Source: an uncultured Candidatus Saccharibacteria bacterium
GTDB lineage: Bacteria; Patescibacteriota; Dojkabacteria; SC72
Assembly: GCA_964621195.1 (NCBI GenBank)
Contig: CAZULJ010000004.1
Coordinates: 16,620-80,619 of the forward strand
DNA length: 64,000 nucleotides
Reading direction: 5' to 3'
The notes below the pieces were generated by a model. It was given only the letters and a program-made list of their open reading frames with translations. It was not told where the DNA came from and did not search any database. The translations under genes were made by a program, and so were the position numbers. Position 1 is the stretch's first letter. Every line of letters begins with the position of its first letter. Shown in pieces: positions 5,741 through 63,008 of the stretch.

Positions 5741-6850
5741 ATGATATCATCCATAGATATGGACATAAATGCTGTAAAAGAAAAATATTCAAAGAACAAA
5801 GCAAGGGAAGAGAAAGAAGCATTGGAGCAGAGAATGATCAATGCTCATAATACAGGGGATAATATATCTCAGATTAGTATAGATCTCACCTACTACTCCC
5901 AACTATCCTCGTACATAGAACAGATACTCTCCCTAACCAAGGCATATGAAGAAGCCGAAGAAATTGTAAAGGAGAATTCGGACCCCGATCTTACAGAGAT
6001 GGCCAAAACTGAGATGGAAGAAATCGAAGAAAAAATCCCCCTATTAGAGAAAGAAATTGCAATATTGCAGATAGATAGAACATTCCATGATGAGGATGAC
6101 AATAGGTCTGCAATACTTGAAATTAGAGCTGGTGCAGGTGGTGATGAAGCGAGCCTGTTTGCCGCAGATCTATTCAGAATGTACAAGAATTTCGCATTAA
6201 AAAATGGTTGGGATATGCAAGTAATAGAGAGTAATATATCTGAAGGTGGTGGTTACAAGGAAGTAATTGCACAAATTAATGGTAAGAATGTATATAAAAA
6301 ACTTAAGTACGAGAGTGGTGTACACAGAGTACAAAGAGTACCTGTTACAGAATCCTCAGGAAGAATACACACCTCTACAGCCTCTGTCGCGATATTACCA
6401 GAAGCAAAAAGTATTGATATTGAGATAAAACCAGAAGATATAAGAATAGATGTTATGAGAGCTTCAGGCGCTGGTGGTCAATGTGTTAATAGAACAGACT
6501 CCGCAGTAAGAATAACCCACTTCCCAAGTGGAATAGTTGTAAGTTGCCAAGAAACAAAACATCAGAGCCAAAATAAAGAGAAAGCTATGGCTTTGTTAAG
6601 ATCTAGACTGTATGAAAAGAAAAGACAAGAAGAGGCAGAGAAAAGATCCAATCTGAGATCCTCACAAATCGGTAGTGCTATGAGAGCAGAGAAGATTAGG
6701 ACATATAACTTTCCACAGAATAGAATTACAGATCATAGAATAAAAAAATCATGGCATAACATAGAAACAGTATTGGCTGGAGAAATAGATGACATGGTTG
6801 ATGATATAAGAGAGGGAATACAGTTAGAACTTCTTAAGGATGTACAGTAA
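5741..6850 (+). CDS. prfA: Peptide chain release factor 1
   Basis: GGQ motif (SGAGGQCVNRTDSAVRITH). The PVT tripeptide (RF1-type PxT) is present in VPVTESSGRIHTS. Confidence 0.9.
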   Translation: MISSIDMDINAVKEKYSKNKAREEKEALEQRMINAHNTGDNISQISIDLTYYSQLSSYIEQILSLTKAYEEAEEIVKENSDPDLTEMAKTEMEEIEEKIPLLEKEIAILQIDRTFHDEDDNRSAILEIRAGAGGDEASLFAADLFRMYKNFALKNGWDMQVIESNISEGGGYKEVIAQINGKNVYKKLKYESGVHRVQRVPVTESSGRIHTSTASVAILPEAKSIDIEIKPEDIRIDVMRASGAGGQCVNRTDSAVRITHFPSGIVVSCQETKHQSQNKEKAMALLRSRLYEKKRQEEAEKRSNLRSSQIGSAMRAEKIRTYNFPQNRITDHRIKKSWHNIETVLAGEIDDMVDDIREGIQLELLKDVQ

Positions 6851-7661
6851 TCTACAGGATGCCTACCTTTTTCAACAACTACTTACTAGAATCGGATATC
6901 CCGATTACAAAAGAATCTCACTAGAGATTGCAGAATACATAGGATCGAATCCCGATATTAAAAGAGAAAATATTGAGAAGAGATTACTTAATGGGGAGCC
7001 CTGGGAATATATTCGTGGATATGCAGAGTTTTGTAATCTACAATTCCTAGTTACAAAGGACACCCTTATACCAAGAGTAGAAACAGAAAAGCTGGTACAC
7101 AGCGTTATTGAAATTATCAAAAAAGAAAATATCAAAAGACTAGTAGATGTAGGCACGGGAACTGGATGTATACCGATTTCAGTAAAGAAGTATTTGGGAG
7201 AAGATTACGTACTAAATATTCATGCTACTGATATATCACAAAGTGCACTCAAGATTGCAAAACGGAATGAAGAATTGATAACTCGGAGTATTGATATAGA
7301 TTGGCTAAATACAAATCTAATAAAAGATGTCGAGGATCTCTCAAACGAAAGTATCTTAACAGCTAATCTGCCATATATTCCCACTGAACAGTATTTAAAA
7401 CTAGACCACTCCGTTATTAATTACGAACCAAGAGAGGCATTAGATGGTGGTAAAGATGGCTTGAAACTCTATAGAGATCTTTTCAAAATGATGAATAAAA
7501 AGAATTACTACCCCAAATATCTCTTTATAGAAACAGAGGAATCTATATATGAGAAAACCTATACACTTATTAAAGAGTTCTTCAAAGTTTCTGAGATTAC
7601 AAAACAGAAAGACTGCTTCGAAAGAGATAGGTTTTTAATAGTAAAGACCCCTACTCTTTAG
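6840..7661 (+). CDS. prmC: Release factor glutamine N5-methyltransferase PrmC/HemK
   Basis: Overlaps the prfA stop. SAM motif VDVGTGTGCI. The NPPY-family motif is present as NLPY. The position after prfA is as expected. Confidence 0.75.
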   Translation: MYSNLQDAYLFQQLLTRIGYPDYKRISLEIAEYIGSNPDIKRENIEKRLLNGEPWEYIRGYAEFCNLQFLVTKDTLIPRVETEKLVHSVIEIIKKENIKRLVDVGTGTGCIPISVKKYLGEDYVLNIHATDISQSALKIAKRNEELITRSIDIDWLNTNLIKDVEDLSNESILTANLPYIPTEQYLKLDHSVINYEPREALDGGKDGLKLYRDLFKMMNKKNYYPKYLFIETEESIYEKTYTLIKEFFKVSEITKQKDCFERDRFLIVKTPTL

Positions 7662-15097: not shown

Positions 15098-16936
15098 ATG
15101 AACAGGATAATACTAAAGTTGCTTCTCACATTAACGATTCTCTTTACCTGCGTTTATACTTTAAATGCAAGTGATTACGATTTCTCAATACAAAACAACA
15201 CCACAATTCAATACACAACAGGTGATGAATATGTCAGTGTTAAGACTGAGTATATACGTGAAGTAAAAAATAGTGACTTCTACTATTCCACACAGGGAGA
15301 GAAAATCTTTCACATACCAGATCTACCAAAGAGTAAGCAGTATGAGCTTGAATTAGAAAGACAATTTAAGAAAGACTCCTTAAAGGTAGTTGATAACAAT
15401 GGGAAAGCCATTCCCTTTACAGTAGAAGATCTTGAATATGGAAGCGGTATATATGTAAAAGTTCCAAACTATAGACAAACAACGTATGGAAACCCATACA
15501 AGATCTATGTTGAGTATAGGACTCACGATTTAGTAAAAAGAGTTTACGATCACGTAATACTTTTAGCACCAGCATTACATGAGGATACGGAATTCGAACA
15601 GATAGATAGTAATACAGGGACAAAGACCTCTTTTAGCTATGATTTGCATATAGTTACAGACAGTGATATTGCTCCTCTTTCAAATATTTATCCTAAAAGT
15701 TTTCAGGAAGAGACCAAAGATAGTAAAACCACATATACATTCGCATCAAAGGATAGGGTTGGGAACTCTCCTTCCTTAGAATTTGGGACGGACCAGATTT
15801 ACAGATTCGAGCTTAAGTACAACACACCTAAGACAGATAGCTTAATACCAGAGAAATATTCATCAGTATTTAATGCTCTTTCTACAAATATATATGAGAT
15901 ATCACTACCTAGAGAGTTTGCAGAGACAAATCAGAAGGTGAAAATAGAGGAGATATTACCTACTCCTTCTAAGATTTCCCAGGACCTTGAGGGCAATATA
16001 ATTGCAAGGTTTGAGGTCCCCGCAAACAAAAGTAGTGCAATCTTAATTACTGGATATATCTTTGTCCAACAAAGTGAGTATGATCAAAGGCCTTTAATTC
16101 CAAACCTAAGCATAGAGGAGTATGCCGAAATGGTAGAGAAGGATTCTAACCTAAACAAATATCTTACCTCCTCCAAATTCTGGGAATCTGACGATCCATA
16201 TATACAAGATGAGGCAAAAAAACTTGTAGAGAGTAGTAGCTCCTTTTTAAACTTAGTTGAAAATGATTACAGATATATAAATGATAGACTTGAGTACGAT
16301 GAGAGTAAGGCAAACAGTGACAATGAGAGAATAGGAGCAAGGGCAGCACTACAAGGTGGTGGTTCTGTTTGCATGGAGTATGCAGACTCAATGATTGCAA
16401 TACTTAGAGCGCAAGGGATTCCTGCCCGCGCTGCACTTGGATACTCTAATTTAAATGTATTAAGTAAGACAAACGAGGAAGGTAGTACTAGGCATCAATG
16501 GGTACAAGTATGGATACCCGATTACGGGTGGTTAAGCATTGATCCTACATATGAGAGCGAGAACATGCTTATTGGCCAAAATATTGAGAAAGTTCTTTGG
16601 GAGACATTCTACAATGAAGATCTTACAAATATTAAAATTTACTCTGCAGATAGTACTACCAATGAAGATTTTTCAGACTATTCTGTAAAAATATATGCCG
16701 TTTCTGAATCTCCTAATCTCGATACATTACTCGATTACTCGGATGTAAGGTCTGTGGAAGATACAAAAAATACACCAGAAGATACACTTAATACTTTTGT
16801 TAAAACAACAACAATTGGTAAATCGGTAGTTATCTTACTCCCAATATTAACAATACTAGGAATATTAATAGCCCTACTGTCATTAACTACATACATCTTC
16901 AGACAGATTAAAGCTCGTAAAGCTCATCAAGGTTAA
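15098..16936 (+). CDS. Secreted transglutaminase-like cysteine protease domain protein, with signal peptide and C-terminal TM
   Basis: The transglutaminase core is GGGSVCMEYADSMIAILRAQGIPARAALGY...HQWVQVWIPDYGWLSIDPT (Cys-His-Asp). N-terminal signal and C-terminal hydrophobic anchor. Confidence 0.6.
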   Translation: MNRIILKLLLTLTILFTCVYTLNASDYDFSIQNNTTIQYTTGDEYVSVKTEYIREVKNSDFYYSTQGEKIFHIPDLPKSKQYELELERQFKKDSLKVVDNNGKAIPFTVEDLEYGSGIYVKVPNYRQTTYGNPYKIYVEYRTHDLVKRVYDHVILLAPALHEDTEFEQIDSNTGTKTSFSYDLHIVTDSDIAPLSNIYPKSFQEETKDSKTTYTFASKDRVGNSPSLEFGTDQIYRFELKYNTPKTDSLIPEKYSSVFNALSTNIYEISLPREFAETNQKVKIEEILPTPSKISQDLEGNIIARFEVPANKSSAILITGYIFVQQSEYDQRPLIPNLSIEEYAEMVEKDSNLNKYLTSSKFWESDDPYIQDEAKKLVESSSSFLNLVENDYRYINDRLEYDESKANSDNERIGARAALQGGGSVCMEYADSMIAILRAQGIPARAALGYSNLNVLSKTNEEGSTRHQWVQVWIPDYGWLSIDPTYESENMLIGQNIEKVLWETFYNEDLTNIKIYSADSTTNEDFSDYSVKIYAVSESPNLDTLLDYSDVRSVEDTKNTPEDTLNTFVKTTTIGKSVVILLPILTILGILIALLSLTTYIFRQIKARKAHQG

Positions 16937-18416
16937 CAGCCTTTTTACCCTCTTCCATTCTATCTTCAGTAGTAGCATACAAGGTCATAAGGATATCACC
17001 CTTCTTTATCTTCTCTCCAGGCATCTTGTATATATATATTCCTGCATTCTTTATCTTTGGAGTTCCAAGTGCTCTTGCAATCTCTACGATTTCCCTTGTC
17101 CACATATACTTTATTGTTCCCTCCCTATCTGATACAACATCATATGTTAACTCTCCAGCTTTTAAATCTTCAGCTTTTACAACCTGCTTGGCCCCTTGAG
17201 CCTTCGCTATATCCCAGAATTTCTTCAATGCTTTGCCAGTATCAAGTATCTCAAGAGCAATTTTTTTACCCTCACCCTTCTTTGCCTTACCATTGTGTTC
17301 AAATATTTCAGCAGCCATATCTAATACCGTCTCTTCCATACCAAGGGGGCGTTTCTCACTTCGCTCCAATATTCTAAGACAGTCCCTCATCTCAAGTACA
17401 GGTCCAACACCATTACCATCAGGACCTTTCACTACTCTCCTAAAGGTTACACACTTAATACCAAACTTATCAAAGAGTTTCTCAAATTCTCTCTCAAGAA
17501 ATTCTAGGTCATCTGGTCTCTCCAACTTTGTTCCCTTACCATATGGGAGATCTATAAGGACAGAGGTTACTCCCATTGCAATCTTTTTTGCAACGATACT
17601 CACCAAGACCTTTTGGAACTCCTGTATCTTTAAAGATCTTTCAACATTAATAATCTCATCATCTGCTGGAGCTAGATACAAAGATCCTCCCCATATCATA
17701 CAAGCACCCTCTTTCTCTACTACTTCGTACACTCTCTTTTTTGTTAGAGCTACTGGCATTACTGTCTCTAATATATCTGTCGTTCCAGCCGGAGAGGTTA
17801 TTGCTCTTGTGGAACTGTTGGGTATTACCAAACCGCTTGCTGCAAGTATAGGAACAAGTACAGGGGTAATACCTTTTCCAGCCGTACCACCGATAGAGTG
17901 CTTATCTACGACTAGATCCTTGTTCTTTTTTATATATTTGAAATCCAATATCTCTCCAGATTCGGCCATACCTTTGGTCATCCATTTGATTTCGTCGTCG
18001 CTAAAACCTGGATTAAAAAATGTTGAAACAAAAAATGCAACTTCTGTCTCCTTTAACTTTCTTGATCCAATATCTTCCATAATTGCAAGCAATTCCTCCT
18101 GGTTGAGCCTCTGTCCAGAGATCTTCTTCTTTATTGCCTCTAAGGACTTCCCAGGCTCTTGTATATCTACAAGGACCTTTGCACCGTTTGGTATATGATA
18201 TTCTTCAGGAATCTCCTCATACAGACCCACTTCCCCTATAGATACCTCGCTATCAGAAATTATAACTTTTACGTAAAGCTCAATGTCCTTGTAACCCAGT
18301 AAAACTATATCTCCTTCATGTATACCTAGGTCATCAGCATCACTTTGGTGAACAACAATGAAGAGATCTTTACCGGCTCCGAGATCAACTTTCTTACTCT
18401 TAAGATATAGCGCCAT
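16908..18416 (-). CDS. AMP phosphorylase (archaeal-type, thymidine phosphorylase family, DeoA-like)
   Basis: About 500 aa with the extra N-terminal domain. DKHSIGGTAGKGITPVLVPILAASGLVIPNSSTRAITSPAGTTD closely matches the AMPpase/TP active-site block. Confidence 0.75.
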   Translation of the reverse strand: MALYLKSKKVDLGAGKDLFIVVHQSDADDLGIHEGDIVLLGYKDIELYVKVIISDSEVSIGEVGLYEEIPEEYHIPNGAKVLVDIQEPGKSLEAIKKKISGQRLNQEELLAIMEDIGSRKLKETEVAFFVSTFFNPGFSDDEIKWMTKGMAESGEILDFKYIKKNKDLVVDKHSIGGTAGKGITPVLVPILAASGLVIPNSSTRAITSPAGTTDILETVMPVALTKKRVYEVVEKEGACMIWGGSLYLAPADDEIINVERSLKIQEFQKVLVSIVAKKIAMGVTSVLIDLPYGKGTKLERPDDLEFLEREFEKLFDKFGIKCVTFRRVVKGPDGNGVGPVLEMRDCLRILERSEKRPLGMEETVLDMAAEIFEHNGKAKKGEGKKIALEILDTGKALKKFWDIAKAQGAKQVVKAEDLKAGELTYDVVSDREGTIKYMWTREIVEIARALGTPKIKNAGIYIYKMPGEKIKKGDILMTLYATTEDRMEEGKKAVNLDELYEL

Positions 18417-18440
18417 TATAGTTAGTTATTTTAGTTTATT

Positions 18441-19379
18441 TCAAAAAAGCCAAGGGTACTTTGCTTTCACAACCTCAGCAATTTCTTTAGGTTTCAGTAT
18501 ACCAAATTCGGTCAAGATTCCAGTAATCAAAGAGTTATCTACTATCTCGAATGCAGGATTAAAAATCTTAAGCTCTTTAGGAGCGTCTTCCCATAACTCC
18601 CTACTCTCACGAACCTCAATCTTGAGTTCATCTCCCCCTATCTGAGGGTCTACCTTTAAAAGTGGTGAAACAACATACAATGGCTTACTTGCATGGTAAG
18701 CAGACATAGCAATACCCCAACTTCCAATCTTGTTAACACAGTAGCCCTTTGTAGTCAGTTGGTCACAGCCAATAAAGACTGCACCTATCGAAACAGAGCC
18801 TCTACCGATAACAAAAGACTCTGCAGCACTATCTGCAATCAAAGTAGTAGAAATACCTGCCTCCAAAAGACTTTTCGCAGTCTTATGCCCTTGAAAAAGA
18901 GGTCTTGTTTCAGTACAAACCGCATCAAATGAGTCTTTTCCTTGCGCAATCCCTTTTATTACAGAAACTGCCGTAGAAGAATGACAATGAGTTAATATAT
19001 TTTCTAAAAATCTTACCTGAGGTACACAGTAATCAATAATGGCTCTCTTTGTGTCAGCAATAAGGTATAGATAGTTGTCACAGTATTCCTCTAAACGCTG
19101 TTTCATACTATCCAAGGATGGTAAATCAGCATTCTTCGATTCATAAGTATGTTCTACAAAACGGACACCATTTTTAGCTAAAGGCTCATTTGATCTAGCA
19201 TTGGCCAACCTATTACCTACCTCAAGAAACTCTTTGTAAAACAGGCTAGAATCTCTGGTTTCGGACTCCTGTATATATGTCTTCATTCCTTCTAAGGTAG
19301 CAATAGCAACATTGGTTGCACCCTGAATGTTCAACTCTTTTATATCTTTTTCGATATCAAGTATCTTTTTGATCTCCAT
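18441..19379 (-). CDS. Ribose-1,5-bisphosphate isomerase (eIF-2B alpha/beta/delta-like, e2b2/MtnA family)
   Basis: 312 aa. GATNVAIATLEG and a Rossmann-like C-terminal half typical of the eIF2B-related isomerases. Adjacent to AMP phosphorylase. Confidence 0.6.
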   Translation of the reverse strand: MEIKKILDIEKDIKELNIQGATNVAIATLEGMKTYIQESETRDSSLFYKEFLEVGNRLANARSNEPLAKNGVRFVEHTYESKNADLPSLDSMKQRLEEYCDNYLYLIADTKRAIIDYCVPQVRFLENILTHCHSSTAVSVIKGIAQGKDSFDAVCTETRPLFQGHKTAKSLLEAGISTTLIADSAAESFVIGRGSVSIGAVFIGCDQLTTKGYCVNKIGSWGIAMSAYHASKPLYVVSPLLKVDPQIGGDELKIEVRESRELWEDAPKELKIFNPAFEIVDNSLITGILTEFGILKPKEIAEVVKAKYPWLF

Positions 19380-19380
19380 A

Positions 19381-20808
19381 TTACTTTAGTTCGAACTCTT
19401 CATTTAACTTAGGTACATCAGTATCAATATTTAACTCTGTTTGTATATTACCCGCAAAACCAATAGCTATTTCCTCATCACCATGGGTTATAAAGATCTT
19501 CTTAGGTGTATGACCAAAACTTCTTAACCAATATCTTAAATCTCTTTGATCTGCATGGGCAGAGAAGCCTCCTAAAGTATGAATTTGAGCATTTACCTCT
19601 ATCTGTTGCCCCATTACAGTTATTTCTTTTTCCCCATTAACAAGCCTTCTTCCTAAGGTCCCTTCAACTTGATAACCAACAAATATCATATGCGTATTGG
19701 GCTTATGTATATGATTTTTAATGTGATGAACTATTCTTCCACCAGTACACATACCACTACCTGCGATAATAACTACGCCAGATTTTGATATCAGTCTCTT
19801 CGATTCTTCGGCAGAATCTATAGTGAAAAGTCCTGGGAAATTAAAAGGATCGTCACCTTTATCCAAAAGCCTTCTGGCGTCCTCATCGTAAAAAGTAGGA
19901 TACTGCTTAAATACTGCAGTAGCTTTTGAAGCCATAGGGCTATCTAGATATATTGGAACTTGGTTAAGTAATTTGTTTTCGACAAACAAATTTATCTCAT
20001 ACAAAAGCTCTTGTGTTCTTTCGATTGCAAATGATGGTATTAGTACATTACCACCCTCCTCCTGGGCCTGTTTAAGAATAGAGAGTAGCTCTAATACTGT
20101 CTCATCTTTGTTTTTATGCAATCTATTCCCATATGTAGCCTCACATATTACATAATCAGCCTCTCTGACTAGGTCGGGATCTCTAACAATTCTTGATCCT
20201 GGTTGACCCAAATCTCCTGAAAATACAATCTTCCTTTCTCTACCAGCTTCCGTATTTACCCAGAATTCAATCAATGCAGAACCAAGAATATGACCAGAGT
20301 CTCTAAATCTAAATTCAATACCATTATGCAAGTTAACTGATGCTCCATAAGGATATACTTCAAACAGCCTAATCATCTCCTCAACATCTTGTTCAGAGAA
20401 TAGTGGCTTTCTCTTCTCATACAAAGATCCTTCAGCAGCAGAACCTCTAAAGGATTCCTCTCTCCTACTTTTAGATTCCCATCTCTCATAAGATTCAAGC
20501 TGTAGCTTTGCTGCGTCTAAAAGTACAATCTTTGCCAAATCCCTTGTTGGCTGTGTAGCAAAGATTCTACCCTTGAAACCCTGCTTAACAAGTACAGGAA
20601 TTCTCCCACAGTGATCAAAATGAGCATGTGTAAGAAATATTGCATCTAGTTCAGTAGGATTAAATGGGAAAGATTCATAGTTTAATGCTTCTAAATCATC
20701 TTTTCCCTGAAAAGCACCACAATCAACTAAGAATTTAAACTCACCAGTATCAACGTAATAACAAGATCCAGTAACTGTTCTTGTAGCTCCACAAAATTTT
20801 ATCTTCAT
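19381..20808 (-). CDS. MBL-fold beta-CASP family ribonuclease (RNA-metabolising metallo-beta-lactamase)
   Basis: HAHFDHCG (HxHxDH), followed by beta-CASP and a C-terminal RNA-specificity region. 475 aa. Confidence 0.7.
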   Translation of the reverse strand: MKIKFCGATRTVTGSCYYVDTGEFKFLVDCGAFQGKDDLEALNYESFPFNPTELDAIFLTHAHFDHCGRIPVLVKQGFKGRIFATQPTRDLAKIVLLDAAKLQLESYERWESKSRREESFRGSAAEGSLYEKRKPLFSEQDVEEMIRLFEVYPYGASVNLHNGIEFRFRDSGHILGSALIEFWVNTEAGRERKIVFSGDLGQPGSRIVRDPDLVREADYVICEATYGNRLHKNKDETVLELLSILKQAQEEGGNVLIPSFAIERTQELLYEINLFVENKLLNQVPIYLDSPMASKATAVFKQYPTFYDEDARRLLDKGDDPFNFPGLFTIDSAEESKRLISKSGVVIIAGSGMCTGGRIVHHIKNHIHKPNTHMIFVGYQVEGTLGRRLVNGEKEITVMGQQIEVNAQIHTLGGFSAHADQRDLRYWLRSFGHTPKKIFITHGDEEIAIGFAGNIQTELNIDTDVPKLNEEFELK

Positions 20809-20843: not shown

Positions 20844-22262
20844 TTACAACATACGTCTGGCTTCCTCCAGCAATTTTTCTTTTGTATTCAAAAGAGGATC
20901 CTCAATTACCATATCTAGAAGGTTTTTCAATATCTCCCCCATCTTAGGACCAGGCTCCACCCCTATACCCCTCAAATCCTCCCCACTTATATCTAAATCT
21001 GTAATCTTAAGGGCCATATCCTCCTGTCGAACTCTTGAAATGTGCTTTTGTAACTCTTCTAACTCTGTTGGCTTAAATGCAGAACTAGGATTTGAACTAG
21101 CATCCGCAATTCTTAGTTTAAAAAGATCTTCAACATTCTCATCACCAACCCTTTTTAAAAATCTTCGAACAGCAGCATCACTCCATTGAGTTAACAGTAT
21201 TTTCTCCATATCCTCATGACTTACCTCCCCTTCAATATGAGGGTAGTAGAACATATGATTCTGAACCAAATTCTTTACTCTATTAATTTCTGAGTTAGGA
21301 AATTTCATTCTCTTAAGAATACTTTCCACCATATCAGCACCCATTTTGTCATGACCATAGAAGTGACCATTACCCATATCTGTACGTGGCTTTGCAATAT
21401 CATGCAACAATGCAGCAAGCTTAACGCTATCCTCTGCAGCATCACAAGTTTTTAAACTATGCCAATATACATCATGGGCATGATACAATTTCTGTTCAAC
21501 ACCATAGCCCTCCAAAAGCTCTGGCAAAAATATATTTAACAGGCCAGTTACTCTTAAAAGCTCTATACCCTTAGAAGGCTTGGAAGAGTTTAACAAAAGC
21601 TTCATAAACTCATCCCTTATTCTTTCCATAGAGACCTGCTTGGCAACAGGTAGTGCCTCTTTAATAGCAAGAAGTGTCTCCTCCTCTATTTCAAAATCAA
21701 GTTGAGAAGCAAGTCGACAAGCCTTAAAAGCACGCAAACCATCCTCCTTAAATCTTTCAAGAGGAGTACCTACAGCTCTTATCAATTTCAGATTAATATC
21801 GGTAATACCACCAAAAGGATCATAGATATTCCACTCCTGATCCTGCACATTCCCCTCGATAGTAGCATTAGATAAATCCATAGCCATTGCATTGATAGTA
21901 AAATCCCTTCTTCCAAGATCCAAATCAAGATCATTTACAAACTGGACTTTAGTTGGCCATCTTCCATCAACATAATCAGATTCACTTCTAAAAGTAGTTA
22001 CCTCAACCTGTTTTGTTTCTCCAGACTCATCTGGAACAAGCGCAAGAACAGTACCAAATTTCGCACCAGTAGATACAGACTTAGGAAAAATCTCTAACAT
22101 CTCATCTGGCTGAGCATTTGTAGCTAAATCGTAATCATGAGGTATCTTACCCATTAAAATATCTCTTAGAGCACCACCTACTAGGTAAACATCATAGCCC
22201 TCTTTACTAAGCGTTCTCGCTACTTTTTGTACATATGATGGTATTGTATATCGTATTTTCAT
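20844..22262 (-). CDS. cca: CCA-adding tRNA nucleotidyltransferase with HD domain. The start is probably Met at 22262.
   Basis: Pol-beta-type NTase head GGALRD...DYDLAT. HD motif HDIAKP. Confidence 0.8.
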   Translation of the reverse strand: MKIRYTIPSYVQKVARTLSKEGYDVYLVGGALRDILMGKIPHDYDLATNAQPDEMLEIFPKSVSTGAKFGTVLALVPDESGETKQVEVTTFRSESDYVDGRWPTKVQFVNDLDLDLGRRDFTINAMAMDLSNATIEGNVQDQEWNIYDPFGGITDINLKLIRAVGTPLERFKEDGLRAFKACRLASQLDFEIEEETLLAIKEALPVAKQVSMERIRDEFMKLLLNSSKPSKGIELLRVTGLLNIFLPELLEGYGVEQKLYHAHDVYWHSLKTCDAAEDSVKLAALLHDIAKPRTDMGNGHFYGHDKMGADMVESILKRMKFPNSEINRVKNLVQNHMFYYPHIEGEVSHEDMEKILLTQWSDAAVRRFLKRVGDENVEDLFKLRIADASSNPSSAFKPTELEELQKHISRVRQEDMALKITDLDISGEDLRGIGVEPGPKMGEILKNLLDMVIEDPLLNTKEKLLEEARRML

Positions 22263-23443
22263 TTTCTTCTTTTCCTTAGGAAATAGTACCAAAGTATTGA
22301 TACAACAACAAGGAAGGAAAATCCGATAACTAGATATTTTGGGAAATAGAATATACCAGTTTTTGGGAGAACAGCTAAACCCAAAACTTGCTCGAAATCA
22401 TCTTTTACCTCAGGGTTTTCTACCTCCCCCTCATTATTTACAACATCCATCTTTATAACGTCGGAATATATTTCATATGGTATCCTTTCTATACAAAAAG
22501 ATTCCACAAAAGGCTTAACTCTAGAAGATACATAGTTTAGCGATTGCCCATTTAAGGATCTCACACCATACATAATTGCGGACTCACCAACTATATTTGA
22601 TTCCTGATTCTCACCAACAACTGCACACTCTCTAACAGTATTTGGATTTGATATTTTTGCATAACCGAAATCTGTTTCATCAGAGATATCGAGAACATAT
22701 TCATACATACACTCCTCATATGGCAGGAAATCCCTTGTCAAAGAGTATTCACCATGCTCAAAAAGTATATCTTCTTCATAGCTTTCAGTTATATTTCTAA
22801 CATACACACGCAAAAGCACTCTTCCATTCAATACTTCTGCCTCCCATCTCTCAAAAATTATTGGAGAGATAACCTGCAAAGAATCAAGCCTGAAAAAGCC
22901 CGAAGAGGCCTCATTCACAATACCAAGTCCCTCATATCTATGGACAAAACCACCCCTGGGATAGTTCCAAGATATAACCCGAAATGGAACTTCCTCAAAA
23001 TCTCCCTCCACATTTACAACCCTTCTAAGATCACCTCTTGATCTATCATATCTTGAAAGAAAAAGATTCAAGGATTCAATATATACCTCTCCATCTGACA
23101 TATTTTGATAGAAATAGACTACATCGACAGTAGCGCCAGGAGGTAAAGAAACTGAATCATATACGCCTGGACGTCTAACTAAGCCGTATAAAGTATCGAA
23201 ATATACAAACTCATCAAAGAATGAAGCTCCATACAAAAGAGATGAACTACTTCCAGAAATGCTATTGGAATTAAAATTTATACAGTTAGGACAGACTCCT
23301 GGGTCAGGAACACTCCCAATACCAAAAGCTACAGTATCATAGAATCTGTTTTCTATTAGGTCACCACTTGGAAAGAAATTATCTGCATATAAATAGGAGG
23401 AAAAACAAAGAAGCAATACAAAGGAGAAAAATACAGATCTCAT
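22259..23443 (-). CDS. LPXTG-type cell-wall-anchored surface protein
   Basis: N-terminal signal peptide. The C-terminus reads LPKTG + hydrophobic stretch + RKRRK-stop, a canonical sortase sorting signal. Confidence 0.6.
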   Translation of the reverse strand: MRSVFFSFVLLLCFSSYLYADNFFPSGDLIENRFYDTVAFGIGSVPDPGVCPNCINFNSNSISGSSSSLLYGASFFDEFVYFDTLYGLVRRPGVYDSVSLPPGATVDVVYFYQNMSDGEVYIESLNLFLSRYDRSRGDLRRVVNVEGDFEEVPFRVISWNYPRGGFVHRYEGLGIVNEASSGFFRLDSLQVISPIIFERWEAEVLNGRVLLRVYVRNITESYEEDILFEHGEYSLTRDFLPYEECMYEYVLDISDETDFGYAKISNPNTVRECAVVGENQESNIVGESAIMYGVRSLNGQSLNYVSSRVKPFVESFCIERIPYEIYSDVIKMDVVNNEGEVENPEVKDDFEQVLGLAVLPKTGIFYFPKYLVIGFSFLVVVSILWYYFLRKRRK

Positions 23444-23688: not shown

Positions 23689-25587
23689 ATGAACATACAA
23701 AGATACCTTAAGATAATTGCAATATTGATCCCATCAATACTACTCTCCATTCCTGCAATATCCTTTGCTGCAGAGCTCGATTCAACAAACTTTAAAATCG
23801 TGGGAGCAACTACTCAAGGGGGGGGAATTGTAGAATCAACATCCGGCAATTACAGTGCCCTACTAAATGTTGGCTCAATCTCTAGTGACCCAAGAATATA
23901 TTCCACCTTGTATAAAGTAGGATCAAGCCCTGAGACACCATTCTTACCATCCGCCCCTATAATTTCATGTTTTGATGCCACCAGCACAAGCCATAGTGAG
24001 TGTTCAATCGGATCCTCTGGGATATCTTCTGCTGGTATGACTAGCCTTTGCGGAGATGGCGGTTGTTATGACAAAGCTAGATTCGAACTATCAGATTACC
24101 CCTATCACTATCAAACAAATGACTCAAGATTGGTTTCTTACTGGCCCATGGATGAACTTGCGAATGATACCTGCGCTGGAGGACAAGATGTCTGTGACCT
24201 AAAAAGTAGCAATCATGGTACTGATTACGGTGCAGGGATTACGACTGGAAGATTCGCAAGGGGCAGAGAGTTCACAGGAGGTACAGACTATTTAGATATG
24301 GGTAATAACTCTTCGCTAGATCTAACCTCACAAGGAACAATATCTGTTTGGGTAAAATCAGATAGGACATACCCTAGCGATGATGCAACAACTAAATTCA
24401 GGTGGATTCTCTACAAAACAAATGGTGGTGGAGTTGGGGAACAAAGTTATTGGTTTGACTGGTATGGAACAAATACTTCAAGAACCTTTAGAGCAAGAAT
24501 CTCTAATGCTGCAGGCGCATCAAATGGTTTTTCAATCTCTAACTATGACATGGGAACAGAGTGGAAACACTTTGTATTAACTTTCGATGGCTCTCTAGTT
24601 AAGTTATTTATAAATGGCACCCTATACGGGAGTGTAACACAAACAATTAGTGCTCAAGTAATAACAGCTCCGGTAAAAATTGGTGGTGCGTATGGATGGG
24701 ACGGATTAATTGACGAGGTAATGATATACAATCAAGCGTTAAGTGACAGTGAAGTAGAAGCTCTCTATCAAGAAACCGCATTAGCTGTAAATCCTGCAGA
24801 CACACTCTACTCTGTTATGATATCTACAGATAACTTTGTATCTGATATTCGATATATCGACTCTTCCACATTTATGCCCGAAAGTATTTCAACCCACAAT
24901 CTTTCCGACTTTATGCCAGAGGATAACTGGGAAGCAGAATTGTTAAACCTAAAGGGATTAGAACCAAATACCACCTACTACCTAAGAGCTGTTGCCCTCC
25001 AAGGATCTTTTACGCAAACAGAACCTGGTCCTGTTCGATCTACTACTACGGGTATCCCAGAAGTATTCTTCGATATAGATATTGCAGATGAATCTGGGTA
25101 TACAGCAGAAAGCTCTCCCCCACACTCTATACAATTTACTGGAGCATATGAACTGATCGGAGGGTCTGCCGCAATTACTGCACAAAATAGAATTTGGTTA
25201 GACGGAAATACCAACTCAAGTGGAGGATACGCCATCATTATGAATGGAACAAATGGTGGTCTATATAGCCCCACCACATTACAGACTATAACCTCGGCGA
25301 CAGCAGATCTTAATGGTGTAAGTTCTGGATTTGGATTACAAAGTGAATATATAGATTACAGTACCGATGGACCAACCCTTGGGTTTATATCCTCAACTAC
25401 AGACTATAGCGGAACAGGTAACGAGGTCGGAATTATTTCTACAACAGCCAACAAAATATATGACGCAGATGGCCCAATTATTGATGGTAGAATGGCATTA
25501 AAAGTGATTGCAAAACCAGGTACCTCATATACTGCTGCCACTGACTATTCAGAGACAATATTCCTAATCTTCGTTCCTAGATATTAA
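23689..25587 (+). CDS. Secreted protein with LamG/concanavalin-A-like lectin domain
   Basis: Signal peptide. YWPMDE...ISVWVK...WKHFVLTFDGSLVKLFINGTLYG...IDEVMIYNQALSDSEVEALY matches the Laminin_G_3 pattern. Confidence 0.6.
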   Translation: MNIQRYLKIIAILIPSILLSIPAISFAAELDSTNFKIVGATTQGGGIVESTSGNYSALLNVGSISSDPRIYSTLYKVGSSPETPFLPSAPIISCFDATSTSHSECSIGSSGISSAGMTSLCGDGGCYDKARFELSDYPYHYQTNDSRLVSYWPMDELANDTCAGGQDVCDLKSSNHGTDYGAGITTGRFARGREFTGGTDYLDMGNNSSLDLTSQGTISVWVKSDRTYPSDDATTKFRWILYKTNGGGVGEQSYWFDWYGTNTSRTFRARISNAAGASNGFSISNYDMGTEWKHFVLTFDGSLVKLFINGTLYGSVTQTISAQVITAPVKIGGAYGWDGLIDEVMIYNQALSDSEVEALYQETALAVNPADTLYSVMISTDNFVSDIRYIDSSTFMPESISTHNLSDFMPEDNWEAELLNLKGLEPNTTYYLRAVALQGSFTQTEPGPVRSTTTGIPEVFFDIDIADESGYTAESSPPHSIQFTGAYELIGGSAAITAQNRIWLDGNTNSSGGYAIIMNGTNGGLYSPTTLQTITSATADLNGVSSGFGLQSEYIDYSTDGPTLGFISSTTDYSGTGNEVGIISTTANKIYDADGPIIDGRMALKVIAKPGTSYTAATDYSETIFLIFVPRY

Positions 25588-25682
25588 GTCAAAATATCTA
25601 TTGACATGGTTGATTGGTATATGTAATCTGTAATCATAATACTAGTTTGTTTTTTTTACTCTAATTTTTAACTCTGCCCAAT

Positions 25683-26804
25683 GTGAGAAGTCTAGGAACT
25701 CTCTTAAGGATAGCGATACCAACATTTTTGATAGTTGGGTTTACCTCATTTTTCATATTCTTTTCTGCACAAGCAGCCTCCCTTACTGCCGTATATATGT
25801 ACTACAGTAGAATTCAAGCTGGACTTAACGGTACTGGTGGGCAAGCAGTACAATTTGTACTAGCAGTTGCACCAGCACAAAATATGGGATCTGGTGGTAC
25901 AATCACAATTGAGTATCCAGATGCAGCCGATGGAACTTGGTGTAGAGGTGCTGGAGCATTAGGAATTTCTGCAGTTGCATCCTCAGAGGCAGACTTGGCA
26001 ATAACATACTGGGATATTGACTCTGCTCTTCCAAACAGTGGTACTGCACTTGCAGCTGCATGTACACAAGGTTCTGGAACAAGCTCGGTAGATACAATAA
26101 CTATTACAAATGTCGGAGCATTAACAGCAGGTACAACATACGGTGTTCAGATTTCTAGCAGCACTGGAGTATTGGGAACCAATGGTACTGCTGGTCAGCA
26201 TGAAATAACTGTAACTGTTGAGAGTGGTGCAACTATTGACTCAAAGACCTTCAAGATTTCATTAGTATCTAATGACTCTGTAGTCGTTAGTGCTACAGTA
26301 TCTGACGCCCCAAGTGTAAACTGTTCAATAAGTACGAATACTGTAAACTTAGGAACCCTTTACCCTGGTGGTGCATATGCAATAGGAACTCATACTATCT
26401 CTACCTCTGCAACTTCTGGATATTACTGGGCTGCATACGGCACGGGAGATGGTTCAACAGATGCTGGTCTTTACAAATCGACCGCCACTACATACTTAAT
26501 AGCATCGGGGACAACTGCAACCTTAGATCTTACAGTCGCTGGTAGTGAAGGTTTCGGAATGACCGTATCAGATCCAGATAGTACTGGTGGCGCCGTAGTA
26601 TCTACAAACTTTGTTGATACAACAGCTGGAACCTTTGGTACACTCGATAGGTTGTATAGTGGAGCAAAGATGATTCTTTCACAAAATGGTGCACAGGGTA
26701 CATCTGAAAATGCTACAATTACATACGGTGCAAGAGCAAGCGCATCAGCACCTGCTGGTTCATACCAAGAAACTGTAACCTTCATTTGTGGTGGTTACTA
26801 CTAG
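25683..26804 (+). CDS. Secreted Gly/Thr/Ser/Ala-rich protein of unknown function
   Basis: N-terminal hydrophobic signal/anchor. Low-complexity T/G/S-rich composition. Part of a same-strand cluster of exported proteins. Confidence 0.4.
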   Translation: MRSLGTLLRIAIPTFLIVGFTSFFIFFSAQAASLTAVYMYYSRIQAGLNGTGGQAVQFVLAVAPAQNMGSGGTITIEYPDAADGTWCRGAGALGISAVASSEADLAITYWDIDSALPNSGTALAAACTQGSGTSSVDTITITNVGALTAGTTYGVQISSSTGVLGTNGTAGQHEITVTVESGATIDSKTFKISLVSNDSVVVSATVSDAPSVNCSISTNTVNLGTLYPGGAYAIGTHTISTSATSGYYWAAYGTGDGSTDAGLYKSTATTYLIASGTTATLDLTVAGSEGFGMTVSDPDSTGGAVVSTNFVDTTAGTFGTLDRLYSGAKMILSQNGAQGTSENATITYGARASASAPAGSYQETVTFICGGYY

Positions 26805-26814
26805 TACTTAGATA

Positions 26815-27777
26815 ATGATATTGAAAATACTTAAGGAATATAACAGAATATTTTTACTGCCCACAATTTTACTCTGTTTAAGTGTGATACCAACATTCGC
26901 ACAGAGTAGTCTTTCAATTGGCGTCTCCCCTACTTCCAAAGTATTAAAAGTTCAACCAGGAGATACATATACTGATGAGGTTGTCTTCTGGAATCTTTCA
27001 CAAGATGCAGACACCTATCAAATCTATGTAAGAGGCTTTAGACAGATAGAGAATCAACCAGGAACAGCAATAATTCTAACCGATGAAGAGGAAGCAAAAT
27101 CTTTGTACTCCGCATCAAAGTGGGTAACACTTGAGAAAGATACTTTAACTCTTGAGCCTAACAAGAATACAAAGCTTAGATATACAATTAATGTTCCTTT
27201 AGATGTTACAGAGGGTGAATACAACGCTCAAATATTTCTAATATCTGAATCTGCAGGAGGAACACAAGGTTCCGTTACATTTGCAAACTTAGCAGCTGGC
27301 ATGCCCCTACTACTTCAGATAGGTGACGAATTTGTAGAGAATGCTGAGCTTCTAAGGTTCACAAGTGACAAGAAGACTTACGAGAAGATAAATATAGATT
27401 TTCTAACACAAATAAAGAATTTAGGAGATACACATATAACACCCACAGGTGAGATTGTAGTAGAAAATATATTTAAACAAGAAGTGGCGAGAATACCATT
27501 CAACAGAAATAGACAAAGCTTACTAAGAGATAATCTAGGCAACTATATAGACAACTGGAGCCAACCAGGATATCTCTCCCCTAACAATGCCCTCGCAATT
27601 GGACCAATGAAGGCTACACTTCTAGTGACATATAGAAGTATACAGCCAGGATTTGCTACTCTCTCTTCTGAGATCTCTTTCTGGATAATTCCTTGGAAGA
27701 TTCTTTTGGCTATTCTCTTACCTATCCTTACTGCTATAATTGTAGTAATAAGTAAGAAAAGACTAAAAAGAAGATAA
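26815..27777 (+). CDS. Cell-surface protein with signal peptide and C-terminal TM anchor plus basic tail. Possibly DUF916-like.
   Basis: Signal peptide. SIGVSPTSKVLKVQPGDTYTDEVVFWNLSQD resembles the N-terminal pattern of WxL-locus DUF916 proteins. The C-terminus is ILLPILTAIIVVISKKRLKRR. Confidence 0.4.
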   Translation: MILKILKEYNRIFLLPTILLCLSVIPTFAQSSLSIGVSPTSKVLKVQPGDTYTDEVVFWNLSQDADTYQIYVRGFRQIENQPGTAIILTDEEEAKSLYSASKWVTLEKDTLTLEPNKNTKLRYTINVPLDVTEGEYNAQIFLISESAGGTQGSVTFANLAAGMPLLLQIGDEFVENAELLRFTSDKKTYEKINIDFLTQIKNLGDTHITPTGEIVVENIFKQEVARIPFNRNRQSLLRDNLGNYIDNWSQPGYLSPNNALAIGPMKATLLVTYRSIQPGFATLSSEISFWIIPWKILLAILLPILTAIIVVISKKRLKRR

Positions 27778-60295: not shown

Positions 60296-60314
60296 AATAT
60301 TTCTCAAAGAAACT

Positions 60315-61292: not shown

Positions 61293-61309
61293 TCTTTTTC
61301 TAAAACAAA

Positions 61310-63007: not shown

Positions 63008-63008
63008 C

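What the first reader, a model, noticed from the sequence alone, without database searches (positions are those of the whole stretch)
16908..19379. Archaeal-type AMP salvage pair: AMP phosphorylase next to ribose-1,5-bisphosphate isomerase
The 502-aa phosphorylase has the extra N-terminal domain and the DKHSIGG...TSSRAITS block typical of AMPpase rather than bacterial thymidine phosphorylase. The adjacent 312-aa eIF2B-like protein fits the R15P isomerase. In archaea, and reportedly in several candidate-phyla bacteria, these two feed a form III RuBisCO. No RuBisCO is present in this window.
Basis: partly seen in the sequence, partly recalled or inferred. Interest (0 to 1): 0.5.

Follow-up and report, generated by a model that had tools for sequence, protein, structure and literature searches.

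The report
Known AMP-salvage gene pair in Dojkabacteria
Two adjacent genes in this candidate-phylum (Dojkabacteria/WS6) genome encode an archaeal-type AMP phosphorylase and a ribose-1,5-bisphosphate isomerase, a nucleotide-salvage pair that feeds RuBisCO and was already described for this phylum in 2016, so the finding is real but ordinary.

Summary
Both ORFs exist exactly as stated: 16908-18416(-), 502 aa, and 18441-19379(-), 312 aa. They lie 24 nt apart on the same strand.

The phosphorylase has the NP-II core plus an extra N-terminal domain of about 90 residues. Its best solved relative is T. kodakarensis AMP phosphorylase (300 bits, against at most 113 for pyrimidine or thymidine phosphorylases).

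The isomerase keeps the catalytic Cys and Asp and most phosphate ligands of T. kodakarensis R15P isomerase. It lacks the MtnA-specific insertion and N-terminal extension. Its family includes proteins fused to RuBisCO.

Homologue names place the window in Candidatus Dojkabacteria (WS6, CPR). The window holds no RuBisCO, and its own genome could not be searched. A MAG whose AMP phosphorylase is 83% identical, with the same gene order (HGW-Dojkabacteria-1), carries a form II/III RuBisCO. So does a more distant Dojkabacteria contig that holds both genes.

Wrighton et al. 2016 and Jaffe et al. 2019 already describe this pathway in Dojkabacteria.

Caveats: both proteins score below NCBI's strict equivalog cut-offs, my distance tree for the isomerase was inconclusive, and no CPR enzyme of either type has been assayed.

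The parts
16908..18416 (-). AMP (nucleoside-monophosphate) phosphorylase homologue, 502 aa (deoA-type, NP-II fold). Its 3' end overlaps the convergent transglutaminase-like gene by 29 nt.
   Evidence: ORF. Pfam Glycos_trans_3N, Glycos_transf_3 and PYNP_C. PRK04350 449.7 bits (cut-off 434) and TIGR02645 442.1 (cut-off 434.6) are met; TIGR03327 AMP_phos 448 (cut-off 535) is not met. Best PDB hit is 4GA5 Tk AMP phosphorylase at 300.7 bits. NP-II ligand residues K172, H173, S174, S202, R204, T212, S273, K277 are conserved.
18147..18416 (-). N-terminal extra domain of the phosphorylase (about residues 1-90), absent from bacterial thymidine and pyrimidine phosphorylases.
   Evidence: The Pfam core begins at residue 93. 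PyNP/TP chains align only from query residue 86-95 onward, whereas full-length Tk AMP phosphorylase aligns from residue 9.
18441..19379 (-). Ribose-1,5-bisphosphate isomerase homologue, 312 aa (e2b2, IF-2B fold). Catalytic Cys132 is at 18984-18986 and Asp206 at 18762-18764.
   Evidence: ORF. Pfam IF-2B 183.7 bits over the full length. TIGR00511 is the best NCBIfam model at 170.9 bits (cut-off 314.1, not met). Best PDB hits are Tk and P. horikoshii R15P isomerase at 114 bits. Residue table. Family members fused to RuBisCO.
19381..20808 (-). Beta-CASP metallo-beta-lactamase ribonuclease, 475 aa, immediately upstream. Its stop codon lies 1 nt from the isomerase ATG. It is probably co-transcribed; any functional link to the pair is only inferred.
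   Evidence: Pfam Lactamase_B, Beta-Casp and RMMBL. The junction sequence is shown. Adjacency is conserved in the related loci that extend upstream of the isomerase gene.
20844..22292 (-). CCA-adding tRNA nucleotidyltransferase, 482 aa, next gene upstream on the same strand. It is a conserved neighbour; whether it belongs to the same transcription unit is not shown.
   Evidence: Pfam PolyA_pol, PolyA_pol_RNAbd, HD and tRNA_NucTran2_2. The order is conserved in the related loci that reach that far.

Best explanation
The two genes encode the first two enzymes of the archaeal-type AMP (nucleoside-monophosphate) salvage route, also called the pentose bisphosphate pathway, in a Candidatus Dojkabacteria (WS6, CPR) bacterium. 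The phosphorylase cleaves AMP, and probably other NMPs, with phosphate into the free base plus ribose-1,5-bisphosphate. The isomerase uses Cys132 and Asp206 to convert ribose-1,5-bisphosphate to ribulose-1,5-bisphosphate. A RuBisCO encoded elsewhere in the genome, most likely form II/III as in close relatives, then adds CO2 and water to give two 3-phosphoglycerate, which enter lower glycolysis. The pair is probably co-transcribed: a 24-nt gap separates the two genes, and the upstream RNase gene ends 1 nt before the isomerase start. Shown here: gene existence, family placement, conserved catalytic and ligand residues, conserved adjacency, RuBisCO fusions within the isomerase family, and RuBisCO in related genomes. 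Inferred: substrate specificity, co-transcription, and the presence of RuBisCO in this particular genome.
For: Phosphorylase: it meets the cut-offs of the archaeal-type models, scores 448 bits on AMP_phos, and only 200 on pyrimidine-NP. The nearest solved structure is Tk AMP phosphorylase, including the N-domain. All NP-II phosphate and nucleoside ligands are conserved. Isomerase: the best model is TIGR00511 and the best solved relatives are Tk and Ph R15Pi. Cys133, His134, Ser135, Asp202, Asn212, Lys213, Lys238, Arg254 and Arg63 (Tk numbering) are all conserved, and the MtnA-specific insertion is absent. The family profile scores R15Pi at 327 bits against MtnA at no more than 220. Family members are fused to form III-c RuBisCO, for example P0200, P0271, P0272 and the Gottesmanbacteria protein P0275. 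The pair is adjacent in every related locus that covers it, down to 58% identity. RuBisCO in relatives: the HGW-Dojkabacteria-1 AMP phosphorylase is 83.3% identical with the same gene order, and that MAG's 733,750-bp scaffold carries a form II/III RuBisCO (L047). RuBisCO MHC1716842.1 and AMP phosphorylase MHC1716991.1 lie on one 320,735-bp Dojkabacteria contig. Literature: all CPR genomes with RuBisCO carry both homologues, Dojkabacteria included (PMC5113843; PMC6389311; PMC9868632). In haloarchaea, NMP phosphorylase occurs only in species with RuBisCO (PMC9700705).
Against: Neither protein reaches NCBI's equivalog cut-off: AMP_phos 448 against 535, and ribulose_e2b2 171 against 314. The phosphorylase scores equally well on TIGR02645, a family labelled only 'putative thymidine phosphorylase'. 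Arg20, Lys24 and Lys136 of Tk R15Pi are Gln, Asn and Ser here. A neighbour-joining tree placed the window's clade outside a (Thermococcales R15Pi + MtnA) group in 157 of 200 bootstraps and with R15Pi in only 33 of 200. Small R15Pi and MtnA profiles score the window about equally, 118 against 129 bits, although the RuBisCO-fused P0200 behaves the same way. RuBisCO is not in the window and is not within 10 kb of the pair in 15 related metagenome loci. Its presence in this genome is untested. In the papers I read, no CPR AMP phosphorylase or R15P isomerase had been assayed.
Confidence: 0.8

Rival explanations
1. The pair makes ribulose-1,5-bisphosphate, but this lineage has no RuBisCO. [quoted passage not shown]
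For: There is no RuBisCO in the 64-kb window or within 10 kb of the pair in 15 related loci. The phylogenies of deoA and e2b2 follow organism phylogeny in CPR, while RuBisCO is sparse and laterally transferred. A RuBisCO-free route from R15P isomerase exists in haloarchaea. I could not show RuBisCO in the closest large genome, JBMNHC01, whose AMP phosphorylase is 82% identical.
Against: In haloarchaea, the RuBisCO-free route goes with absence of NMP phosphorylase, and NMP phosphorylase homologues occur only in species with RuBisCO. A relative with an 83%-identical AMP phosphorylase and the same gene order has form II/III RuBisCO. None of the genes directly flanking the pair is an aldolase or a HAD phosphatase. 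In Dojkabacteria, RuBisCO sits far from the pair, between infB and rpsO or groES, so its absence from the window is expected.
Confidence: 0.1
2. The genes are an ordinary pyrimidine or thymidine nucleoside phosphorylase next to methylthioribose-1-phosphate isomerase (MtnA) of methionine salvage, as NCBI's 'thymidine phosphorylase' name for the homologues suggests.
For: NCBI names the homologues 'thymidine phosphorylase'. PRK04350 carries that title. The isomerase scores 162 on eIF-2B_rel and 131 on mtnA, not far below its 171 on e2b2. A four-sequence MtnA profile scores it 129 bits against 118 for a two-sequence R15Pi profile.
Against: Y_phosphoryl scores 200 against a cut-off of 409, and the TP/PyNP equivalogs score 139-181 against cut-offs of 269-571. 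The N-terminal domain is absent from TP/PyNP. The isomerase lacks the MtnA N-terminal extension and the 8-residue CNAGxLATxxxG insertion, and it has Lys instead of Thr/Ser at the 5-phosphate position. Family members are fused to RuBisCO. Only 10 of 200 bootstraps group it with MtnA.
Confidence: 0.03
3. The eIF2B-like protein is a non-catalytic regulatory or ligand-binding protein like the eIF2B alpha/beta/delta subunits, and its adjacency to the phosphorylase is plain synteny.
For: It belongs to the IF-2B fold. The whole region is syntenic across Dojkabacteria, so adjacency alone is weak evidence.
Against: The catalytic Cys and Asp are absent from human eIF2B alpha (Ala and Glu at those positions) but present here, and they are conserved in 137 and 138 of 138 family representatives. 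Bacteria have no eIF2. Family members are fused to RuBisCO.
Confidence: 0.02

Closest known systems
CPR nucleoside/AMP pathway with RuBisCO (Wrighton et al. 2016, ISME J, PMC5113843; Jaffe et al. 2019, MBE, PMC6389311)
   Same: Same phylum (Dojkabacteria/WS6), same two genes (deoA-type AMP phosphorylase and e2b2-type R15P isomerase), and the same inferred role feeding form II/III, III-like or III-c RuBisCO. JGI already annotates the homologues as 'AMP phosphorylase'.
   Different: Nothing substantive. This is another member of that set. RuBisCO lies outside the window, as is usual for form II/III carriers. Only 1 of 80 form II/III loci had an e2b2 homologue within 6 kb.
Thermococcus kodakarensis AMP metabolic / pentose bisphosphate pathway: Tk-AMPpase (PDB 4GA4-6), Tk-R15Pi (PDB 3A11, 3A9C, 3VM6) and form III RuBisCO
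   Same: The phosphorylase has the same domain architecture, including the N-terminal domain, and is 38% identical. The isomerase has the same catalytic Cys/Asp and the same 1-phosphate and 5-phosphate ligands Ser135, Lys213, Lys238, Arg254 and Arg63.
   Different: Sequences are divergent and fall below the equivalog cut-offs. Arg20, Lys24 and Lys136 of the isomerase ('initial binding site' residues, PMC6423476) are Gln, Asn and Ser in the CPR family. The phosphorylase has Lys at the E. coli TP Lys84 position, where Tk has Val. The host is a bacterium, and the partner RuBisCO in relatives is form II/III, not III-b.
MtnA (S-methyl-5-thioribose-1-phosphate isomerase; PDB 2YRF, 1T9K)
   Same: Same IF-2B fold, the same catalytic Cys and Asp, and the same Asn-Lys and Arg ligands for the 1-phosphate.
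   Different: MtnA has an N-terminal extension of about 30 residues, an 8-residue insertion after the catalytic Cys, and Thr/Ser where R15Pi and the window protein have the 5-phosphate-binding Lys.
Non-carboxylating pentose bisphosphate pathway of haloarchaea (Sato et al. 2022, PMC9700705)
   Same: It uses an R15P isomerase to make RuBP from nucleoside-derived ribose.
   Different: It enters via a nucleoside phosphorylase plus a ribose-1-phosphate kinase, not an NMP phosphorylase, and it disposes of RuBP by a phosphatase and an aldolase. NMP phosphorylase homologues occur only in RuBisCO-bearing haloarchaea.

Membership tests
AMP phosphorylase (EC 2.4.2.57; TIGR03327; Tk-AMPpase type) | NP-II core: helical N-domain, alpha/beta domain and PYNP C-terminal domain | tested here: met
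   PF02885, PF00591 and PF07831 all score above their gathering cut-offs.
AMP phosphorylase (EC 2.4.2.57; TIGR03327; Tk-AMPpase type) | Extra N-terminal domain of about 85-90 residues preceding the NP-II core | tested here: met
   The core starts at residue 93. Residues 9-89 align to Tk-AMPpase residues 7-87. The full-length chain scores 300.7 bits against 282.7 for the N-terminally truncated chain.
AMP phosphorylase (EC 2.4.2.57; TIGR03327; Tk-AMPpase type) | Score at or above the curated cut-off of the equivalog model TIGR03327 | tested here: not met
   448 bits against a cut-off of 535. The broader models are met: PRK04350 at 449.7 against 434, and TIGR02645 at 442.1 against 434.6.
AMP phosphorylase (EC 2.4.2.57; TIGR03327; Tk-AMPpase type) | Closer to characterised AMP phosphorylase than to thymidine or pyrimidine nucleoside phosphorylases | tested here: met
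   300.7 bits to 4GA5 against at most 112.6 to any PyNP/TP chain. 38% identity to Tk against 26% to E. coli TP.
AMP phosphorylase (EC 2.4.2.57; TIGR03327; Tk-AMPpase type) | Conserved phosphate and nucleoside ligands of the NP-II active site (E. coli TP Lys84, His85, Ser86, Ser113, Arg115, Thr123, Ser186, Lys190) | tested here: met
   All are conserved, as K172, H173, S174, S202, R204, T212, S273 and K277. These residues do not separate AMP specificity from nucleoside specificity.
AMP phosphorylase (EC 2.4.2.57; TIGR03327; Tk-AMPpase type) | Phosphorolysis of AMP/NMP to base plus ribose-1,5-bisphosphate | not testable with these tools
   This needs an enzyme assay. I found no assay of any CPR homologue in the papers I read.
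AMP phosphorylase (EC 2.4.2.57; TIGR03327; Tk-AMPpase type) | Occurs in a genome that also encodes R15P isomerase and a form III-type RuBisCO | tested here: inconclusive
   The R15P isomerase homologue is adjacent. RuBisCO is absent from the window, and the rest of the genome is out of reach. RuBisCO is present in HGW-Dojkabacteria-1, whose AMP phosphorylase is 83% identical. It also lies on the same 320,735-bp contig as a 60%-identical homologue.
Ribose-1,5-bisphosphate isomerase (EC 5.3.1.29; TIGR00511; Tk-R15Pi type) | IF-2B fold over the full length, without the MtnA N-terminal extension | tested here: met
   PF01008 covers residues 18-297 of the protein and positions 2-280 of 280 in the model. 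The protein is collinear end to end with Tk and Ph R15Pi, whereas MtnA chains start 30-50 residues earlier.
Ribose-1,5-bisphosphate isomerase (EC 5.3.1.29; TIGR00511; Tk-R15Pi type) | Score at or above the curated cut-off of TIGR00511 | tested here: not met
   170.9 bits against a cut-off of 314.1. It is still the best-scoring model, ahead of eIF-2B_rel at 162 and mtnA at 131.
Ribose-1,5-bisphosphate isomerase (EC 5.3.1.29; TIGR00511; Tk-R15Pi type) | Catalytic Cys133 and Asp202 (Tk numbering; PMC6423476) | tested here: met
   They are Cys132 and Asp206 in the window protein, within THCHSS and GCDQ motifs. They are conserved in 137 and 138 of 138 family representatives.
Ribose-1,5-bisphosphate isomerase (EC 5.3.1.29; TIGR00511; Tk-R15Pi type) | Ligands of the two phosphates: Arg20, Arg63, Ser135, Lys136, Lys213, Lys238, Arg254 (plus Lys24 of the 'initial binding site') | tested here: inconclusive
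   Arg63, Ser135, Lys213, Lys238 and Arg254 are conserved. Arg20 is Gln19, Lys24 is Asn23 and Lys136 is Ser135. The same substitutions occur in the RuBisCO-fused P0200, and Gln replaces Arg20 in 133 of 138 family members.
Ribose-1,5-bisphosphate isomerase (EC 5.3.1.29; TIGR00511; Tk-R15Pi type) | Phylogenetic grouping with characterised R15Pi to the exclusion of MtnA | tested here: inconclusive
   In the neighbour-joining bootstrap, 33 of 200 trees grouped it with R15Pi, 10 of 200 with MtnA, and 157 of 200 put it outside both. Distances are saturated at 1.7-1.9. The family profile favours R15Pi, at 327 bits against no more than 220.
Ribose-1,5-bisphosphate isomerase (EC 5.3.1.29; TIGR00511; Tk-R15Pi type) | Functional link to RuBisCO | tested here: met
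   Family members are fused to form III-c RuBisCO. P0200 is 726 aa and 37% identical to the window protein. Many other proteins combine PF01008 and PF00016. The fusion was also reported by Jaffe 2019.
MtnA (methylthioribose-1-phosphate isomerase; TIGR00512) | N-terminal extension, CNAGxLATxxxG insertion after the catalytic Cys, Thr/Ser at Tk position 238, and a score above the model cut-off | tested here: not met
   None of the three sequence features is present. TIGR00512 scores 131 against a cut-off of 279.
Thymidine / pyrimidine nucleoside phosphorylase (TIGR02644, TIGR02643, PRK05820, PRK06078) | Score above the family cut-offs; about 430-440 aa with no N-terminal extra domain | tested here: not met
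   Scores are 200/409, 139/571, 181/269 and 139/559. The protein is 502 aa and has the extra domain.

The most novel reading that the evidence does not exclude
The pair may be the distal end of a conserved Dojkabacteria transcription unit: unknown secreted protein, CCA-adding enzyme, beta-CASP ribonuclease, R15P isomerase, AMP phosphorylase. In this reading, a 5'-NMP-releasing beta-CASP RNase is physically coupled to NMP phosphorolysis, so RNA turnover or scavenged RNA is channelled straight into RuBisCO-dependent carbon and energy gain. The RNase stop codon lies 1 nt from the isomerase ATG, and the order holds down to 58% AMP phosphorylase identity. However, the whole region is syntenic in this phylum, and published PER-1 neighbourhoods differ, so the link may be no more than inherited gene order.
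Probability: 0.2. Interest if true: 0.4.

Novelty: already known. Interest (0 to 1): 0.15.

Why it matters
The pathway gives metabolically minimal CPR bacteria a way to turn scavenged nucleotides into 3-phosphoglycerate, and so into ATP through lower glycolysis. It is also a textbook case of an 'archaeal' pathway in bacteria. That significance was established by Wrighton et al. 2016 and Jaffe et al. 2019, and this window adds only another example. The practical value is for annotation. NCBI's pipeline calls these genes 'thymidine phosphorylase' or hypothetical because they fall below the equivalog cut-offs, which hides the pathway in many Dojkabacteria MAGs.

Tried and rejected
1. I looked for RuBisCO next to the pair. 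tblastn with four RuBisCO forms on the window and 19 related loci found nothing.

2. I tried to obtain Dojkabacteria RuBisCO sequences through the form III-c half of a fusion protein. That search returned only Gottesmanbacteria and other Patescibacteria, with no link to this lineage.

3. I tried to place a RuBisCO in the same samples as the window's own contigs (SRR33038822, SRR31966179, SRR31966181, JGI 3300010351). Look-ups of P0392, P0393, P0394 and P0399 hit other samples only. One sample, ERR13731100, holds both a 74%-identical AMP phosphorylase and a RuBisCO, which is weak evidence.

4. I checked the closest large genome, JBMNHC01 (724,554 bp, AMP phosphorylase 82% identical). I could not show or exclude a RuBisCO there.

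5. I matched 'longest_contig' values between the AMP phosphorylase and RuBisCO hit tables. Only the 320,735-bp contig matched. These values describe the cluster representative only, so a lack of matches carries no information.

6. I built a neighbour-joining tree of the isomerase family rooted on eIF2B alpha. Distances were saturated and the result was inconclusive. No maximum-likelihood program was available.

7. A sigma-70-like promoter match lies in the isomerase/phosphorylase spacer. Its -10 box overlaps the phosphorylase ATG, and the region has fewer promoter-like hits than shuffled sequence (12 against a mean of 23), so I treated it as a chance match.

8. No supplementary files of the two key papers were held, and the Aono 2012 enzymology paper was not held.

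9. I did not run structure prediction or fold search, because R15Pi, MtnA and eIF2B share one fold and the result would not discriminate between them.

Full report
**Observation**

The two ORFs are at exactly the stated coordinates. They are 16908-18416 on the minus strand (502 aa, ATG start) and 18441-19379 on the minus strand (312 aa, ATG start). A 24-nt spacer separates them.

Both are clearly genes. The larger one carries the three Pfam domains of the nucleoside-phosphorylase-II fold, with its core starting at residue 93. The smaller one matches Pfam IF-2B over essentially its whole length at E 6e-54.

'DKHSIGG' is present at residues 171-177. The quoted 'TSSRAITS' is the T. kodakarensis version; the window reads 'SSTRAITS'.

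**Organism**

The closest homologues of the phosphorylase, at 58-85% identity, are named Candidatus Dojkabacteria or candidate division WS6 by NCBI. JGI already calls them 'AMP phosphorylase'. The window has 34-41% G+C. The genes I scanned or read from the translations are mostly housekeeping genes, which fits a small CPR genome.

**The phosphorylase**

- On NCBIfam it reaches the cut-offs of the archaeal-type models: PRK04350 at 449.7 against 434, and TIGR02645 at 442.1 against 434.6.
- It scores 448 on the AMP phosphorylase equivalog TIGR03327, whose cut-off of 535 it does not reach.
- Pyrimidine and thymidine phosphorylase models score only 139-200, far below their cut-offs.
- Among solved structures the best match is T. 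kodakarensis AMP phosphorylase at 300.7 bits, aligned from residue 9 and so including the N-terminal domain. The best pyrimidine-nucleoside phosphorylase scores 112.6 bits and aligns only from residue 93.
- Aligned with the E. coli thymidine phosphorylase taken from MG1655, every classical NP-II phosphate and nucleoside ligand is conserved. Identity is 38% to the archaeal enzyme and 26% to E. coli TP.

These data put it in the AMP phosphorylase branch of the fold. They do not prove AMP specificity, which no sequence feature I could test defines.

**The isomerase**

TIGR00511 (R15P isomerase) is the best NCBIfam model at 170.9 bits. That is below its cut-off of 314 and not far above eIF-2B_rel (162) and mtnA (131). 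The best solved relatives are the R15P isomerases of T. kodakarensis and P. horikoshii at 114 bits, ahead of MtnA at 96.5 bits or less.

I built a reference set from PDB sequences whose identity I checked by search: B. subtilis MtnA, human eIF2B alpha, and the T. maritima, P. horikoshii and A. fulgidus MtnA homologues. I aligned these with 138 family representatives from an exhaustive HMMER search. Using the residue roles given in PMC6423476, the alignment shows the following.

| Tk R15Pi residue | Window residue | Status |
|---|---|---|
| Cys133 (catalytic) | Cys132 | conserved |
| His134 | His133 | conserved |
| Ser135 | Ser134 | conserved |
| Asp202 (catalytic) | Asp206 | conserved |
| Asn212, Lys213 | Asn216, Lys217 | conserved |
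| Lys238 | Lys242 | conserved |
| Arg254 | Arg257 | conserved |
| Arg63 | Arg62 | conserved |
| Arg20 | Gln19 | replaced |
| Lys24 | Asn23 | replaced |
| Lys136 | Ser135 | replaced |

MtnA proteins differ by three features: an N-terminal extension, an 8-residue insertion after the catalytic Cys (CNAGxLATxxxG), and Thr/Ser in place of the 5-phosphate-binding Lys238. The window protein has none of these. Human eIF2B alpha lacks the catalytic Cys and Asp.

A profile of the 139-member family scores the two characterised R15P isomerases at 327 bits, the four MtnA sequences at 206-220, and eIF2B alpha at 149.

A neighbour-joining bootstrap was not decisive. The window grouped with Thermococcales R15Pi in 33 of 200 replicates and with MtnA in 10 of 200. 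It fell outside both in 157 of 200, with pairwise distances saturated near 1.8.

The strongest functional clue is a gene fusion. Representative P0200 (726 aa) joins an isomerase domain to a form III-c RuBisCO. That domain is 37% identical to the window protein and shares its Gln20 and CHSS features. Many further proteins combine PF01008 and PF00016. Jaffe et al. also reported this fusion.

**Context**

The following order is conserved in the related loci long enough to show it, down to 58% phosphorylase identity:

- a 394-aa protein with no family match;
- the CCA-adding enzyme;
- the beta-CASP ribonuclease;
- the isomerase;
- the phosphorylase, all five on one strand;
- then a convergent transglutaminase-like gene, YchF, S6, SSB and S18.

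The RNase stop codon is 1 nt from the isomerase ATG. No terminator-like site lies between the genes, and promoter-like matches are fewer than in shuffled sequence. Co-transcription is therefore likely but not shown. Because the whole region is syntenic, the RNase link is only a hypothesis.

**RuBisCO**

The window holds none, and none lies within 10 kb of the pair in 15 related metagenome loci.

I scanned one genome per GTDB species with three form II/III sequences and found 299 loci. Many are in Dojkabacteria. PDB entry 9DYP proved identical to the RuBisCO of WS6 bacterium GW2011_GWC2_36_7.

In Dojkabacteria the gene sits after nusA-infB and before groES-groEL or rpsO-pnp, far from the salvage pair. 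Only 1 of 80 form II/III loci had an e2b2 homologue within 6 kb.

Two links tie the pair to RuBisCO within single genomes:

- RuBisCO MHC1716842.1 and AMP phosphorylase MHC1716991.1 lie on one 320,735-bp Dojkabacteria contig. That phosphorylase is 60% identical to the window's.
- HGW-Dojkabacteria-1 encodes an AMP phosphorylase (PKN03031.1) that is 83.3% identical to the window's, in the same gene order. Its 733,750-bp scaffold carries an intact 489-aa form II/III RuBisCO (L047).

A third cluster, at 77% identity, is named only 'candidate division WS6 bacterium' with Rifle-aquifer accessions. Some members are RIFOXY..._33 bins. Wrighton et al. list 33%-GC WS6 genomes of that series with III-like RuBisCO. 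I could not confirm they are the same genomes, because the names are truncated.

I could not test the window's own genome, and attempts at sample-level matching failed.

**Comparison with the literature**

- Wrighton et al. 2016 report that all CPR genomes with RuBisCO, including six Dojkabacteria, carry both AMP-pathway homologues. [quoted passage not shown]
- Jaffe et al. 2019 analyse deoA, e2b2 and RuBisCO across CPR and DPANN and note that Dojkabacteria frequently encode several RuBisCO forms.
- A 2023 mat study again reports the three genes in Dojkabacteria MAGs.
- In haloarchaea, NMP phosphorylase is found only in species that also have RuBisCO. This argues against a RuBisCO-free use of the pair.

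**Verdict**

Remaining uncertainties are the lack of any biochemical test of CPR enzymes, scores below the equivalog cut-offs, the unresolved deep phylogeny of the isomerase, and the untested presence of RuBisCO in this particular genome.

Noticed in passing
window 58817-63962 (+): Four consecutive ATP-grasp genes of 492, 325, 565 and 317 aa run to the window end. They match ATPgrasp_ST at 230 bits and RimK-like or GARS_A-like domains. This may be a peptide or poly-amino-acid ligase cluster of unknown product.
   Followed up: partly
window 19381-20808 (-): The beta-CASP RNase upstream of the isomerase scores 416 bits on NCBIfam 'type VII CRISPR-associated Cas14' (cut-off 800) and 332 bits on aCPSF1 (cut-off 580). 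It is a stand-alone beta-CASP nuclease without the aCPSF1 N-terminal part, and its stop codon is 1 nt from the isomerase ATG.
   Followed up: partly
L020 (LBSF01000049.1) 5885-7249: PDB entry 9DYP/9DYR, labelled only 'ribulose-1,5-bisphosphate carboxylase', is 100% identical to the form II/III RuBisCO of candidate division WS6 bacterium GW2011_GWC2_36_7. A Dojkabacteria RuBisCO structure therefore already exists.
   Followed up: yes
L100 10001-11431; L110 10001-11428; L127-L129: In Dojkabacteria the form II/III RuBisCO gene sits in a conserved housekeeping context: dnaJ, nusA, infB, RuBisCO, then either groES-groEL or rpsO-pnp. It appears to be inserted into the classical nusA-infB-rpsO-pnp neighbourhood.
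   Followed up: partly
proteins P0200, P0271, P0272, P0275; P0123, P0124, P0248: Some R15P-isomerase homologues are fused to form III-c RuBisCO. In P0200 the isomerase is N-terminal; the domain order of the others was not read. Other family members carry N-terminal extensions of 85-400 residues that are low-complexity or highly basic.
   Followed up: partly
window 19311-19325 (isomerase residues 19-23): The CPR isomerase family has IQGA(T/S)N where Thermococcales R15Pi and MtnA have (I/V)RGA. Gln replaces Arg20 in 133 of 138 representatives, and Lys24 and Lys136 are also lost. Substrate capture or the AMP activation described for the archaeal enzyme may differ.
   Followed up: partly
window 16908-16936: The 3' ends of the phosphorylase gene and the convergent transglutaminase-like gene (15098-16936, +) overlap by 29 nt. 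In related loci the 3' ends overlap or lie within about 90 nt.
   Followed up: partly
window 22259-23443 (-) and 23689-28658 (+): A 394-aa protein has no Pfam match. By eye from the translation (no prediction tool was run), it has a hydrophobic N-terminus and a C-terminal hydrophobic segment with a basic tail. It heads the co-oriented gene run and evolves fast: 28-47% identity where its neighbours keep 65-88%. Beyond the tRNA-Ser gene, on the other strand, lies a cluster of apparently secreted proteins, judged from hydrophobic N-termini in the translations; one carries a Laminin_G_3 domain.
   Followed up: no
window 17901-17903 (phosphorylase Lys172): The window enzyme has Lys at the position of E. 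coli TP Lys84 (DKHSIGG), as do all 30 sampled Dojkabacteria homologues. The characterised T. kodakarensis AMP phosphorylase has Val there (DVHSIGG).
   Followed up: no
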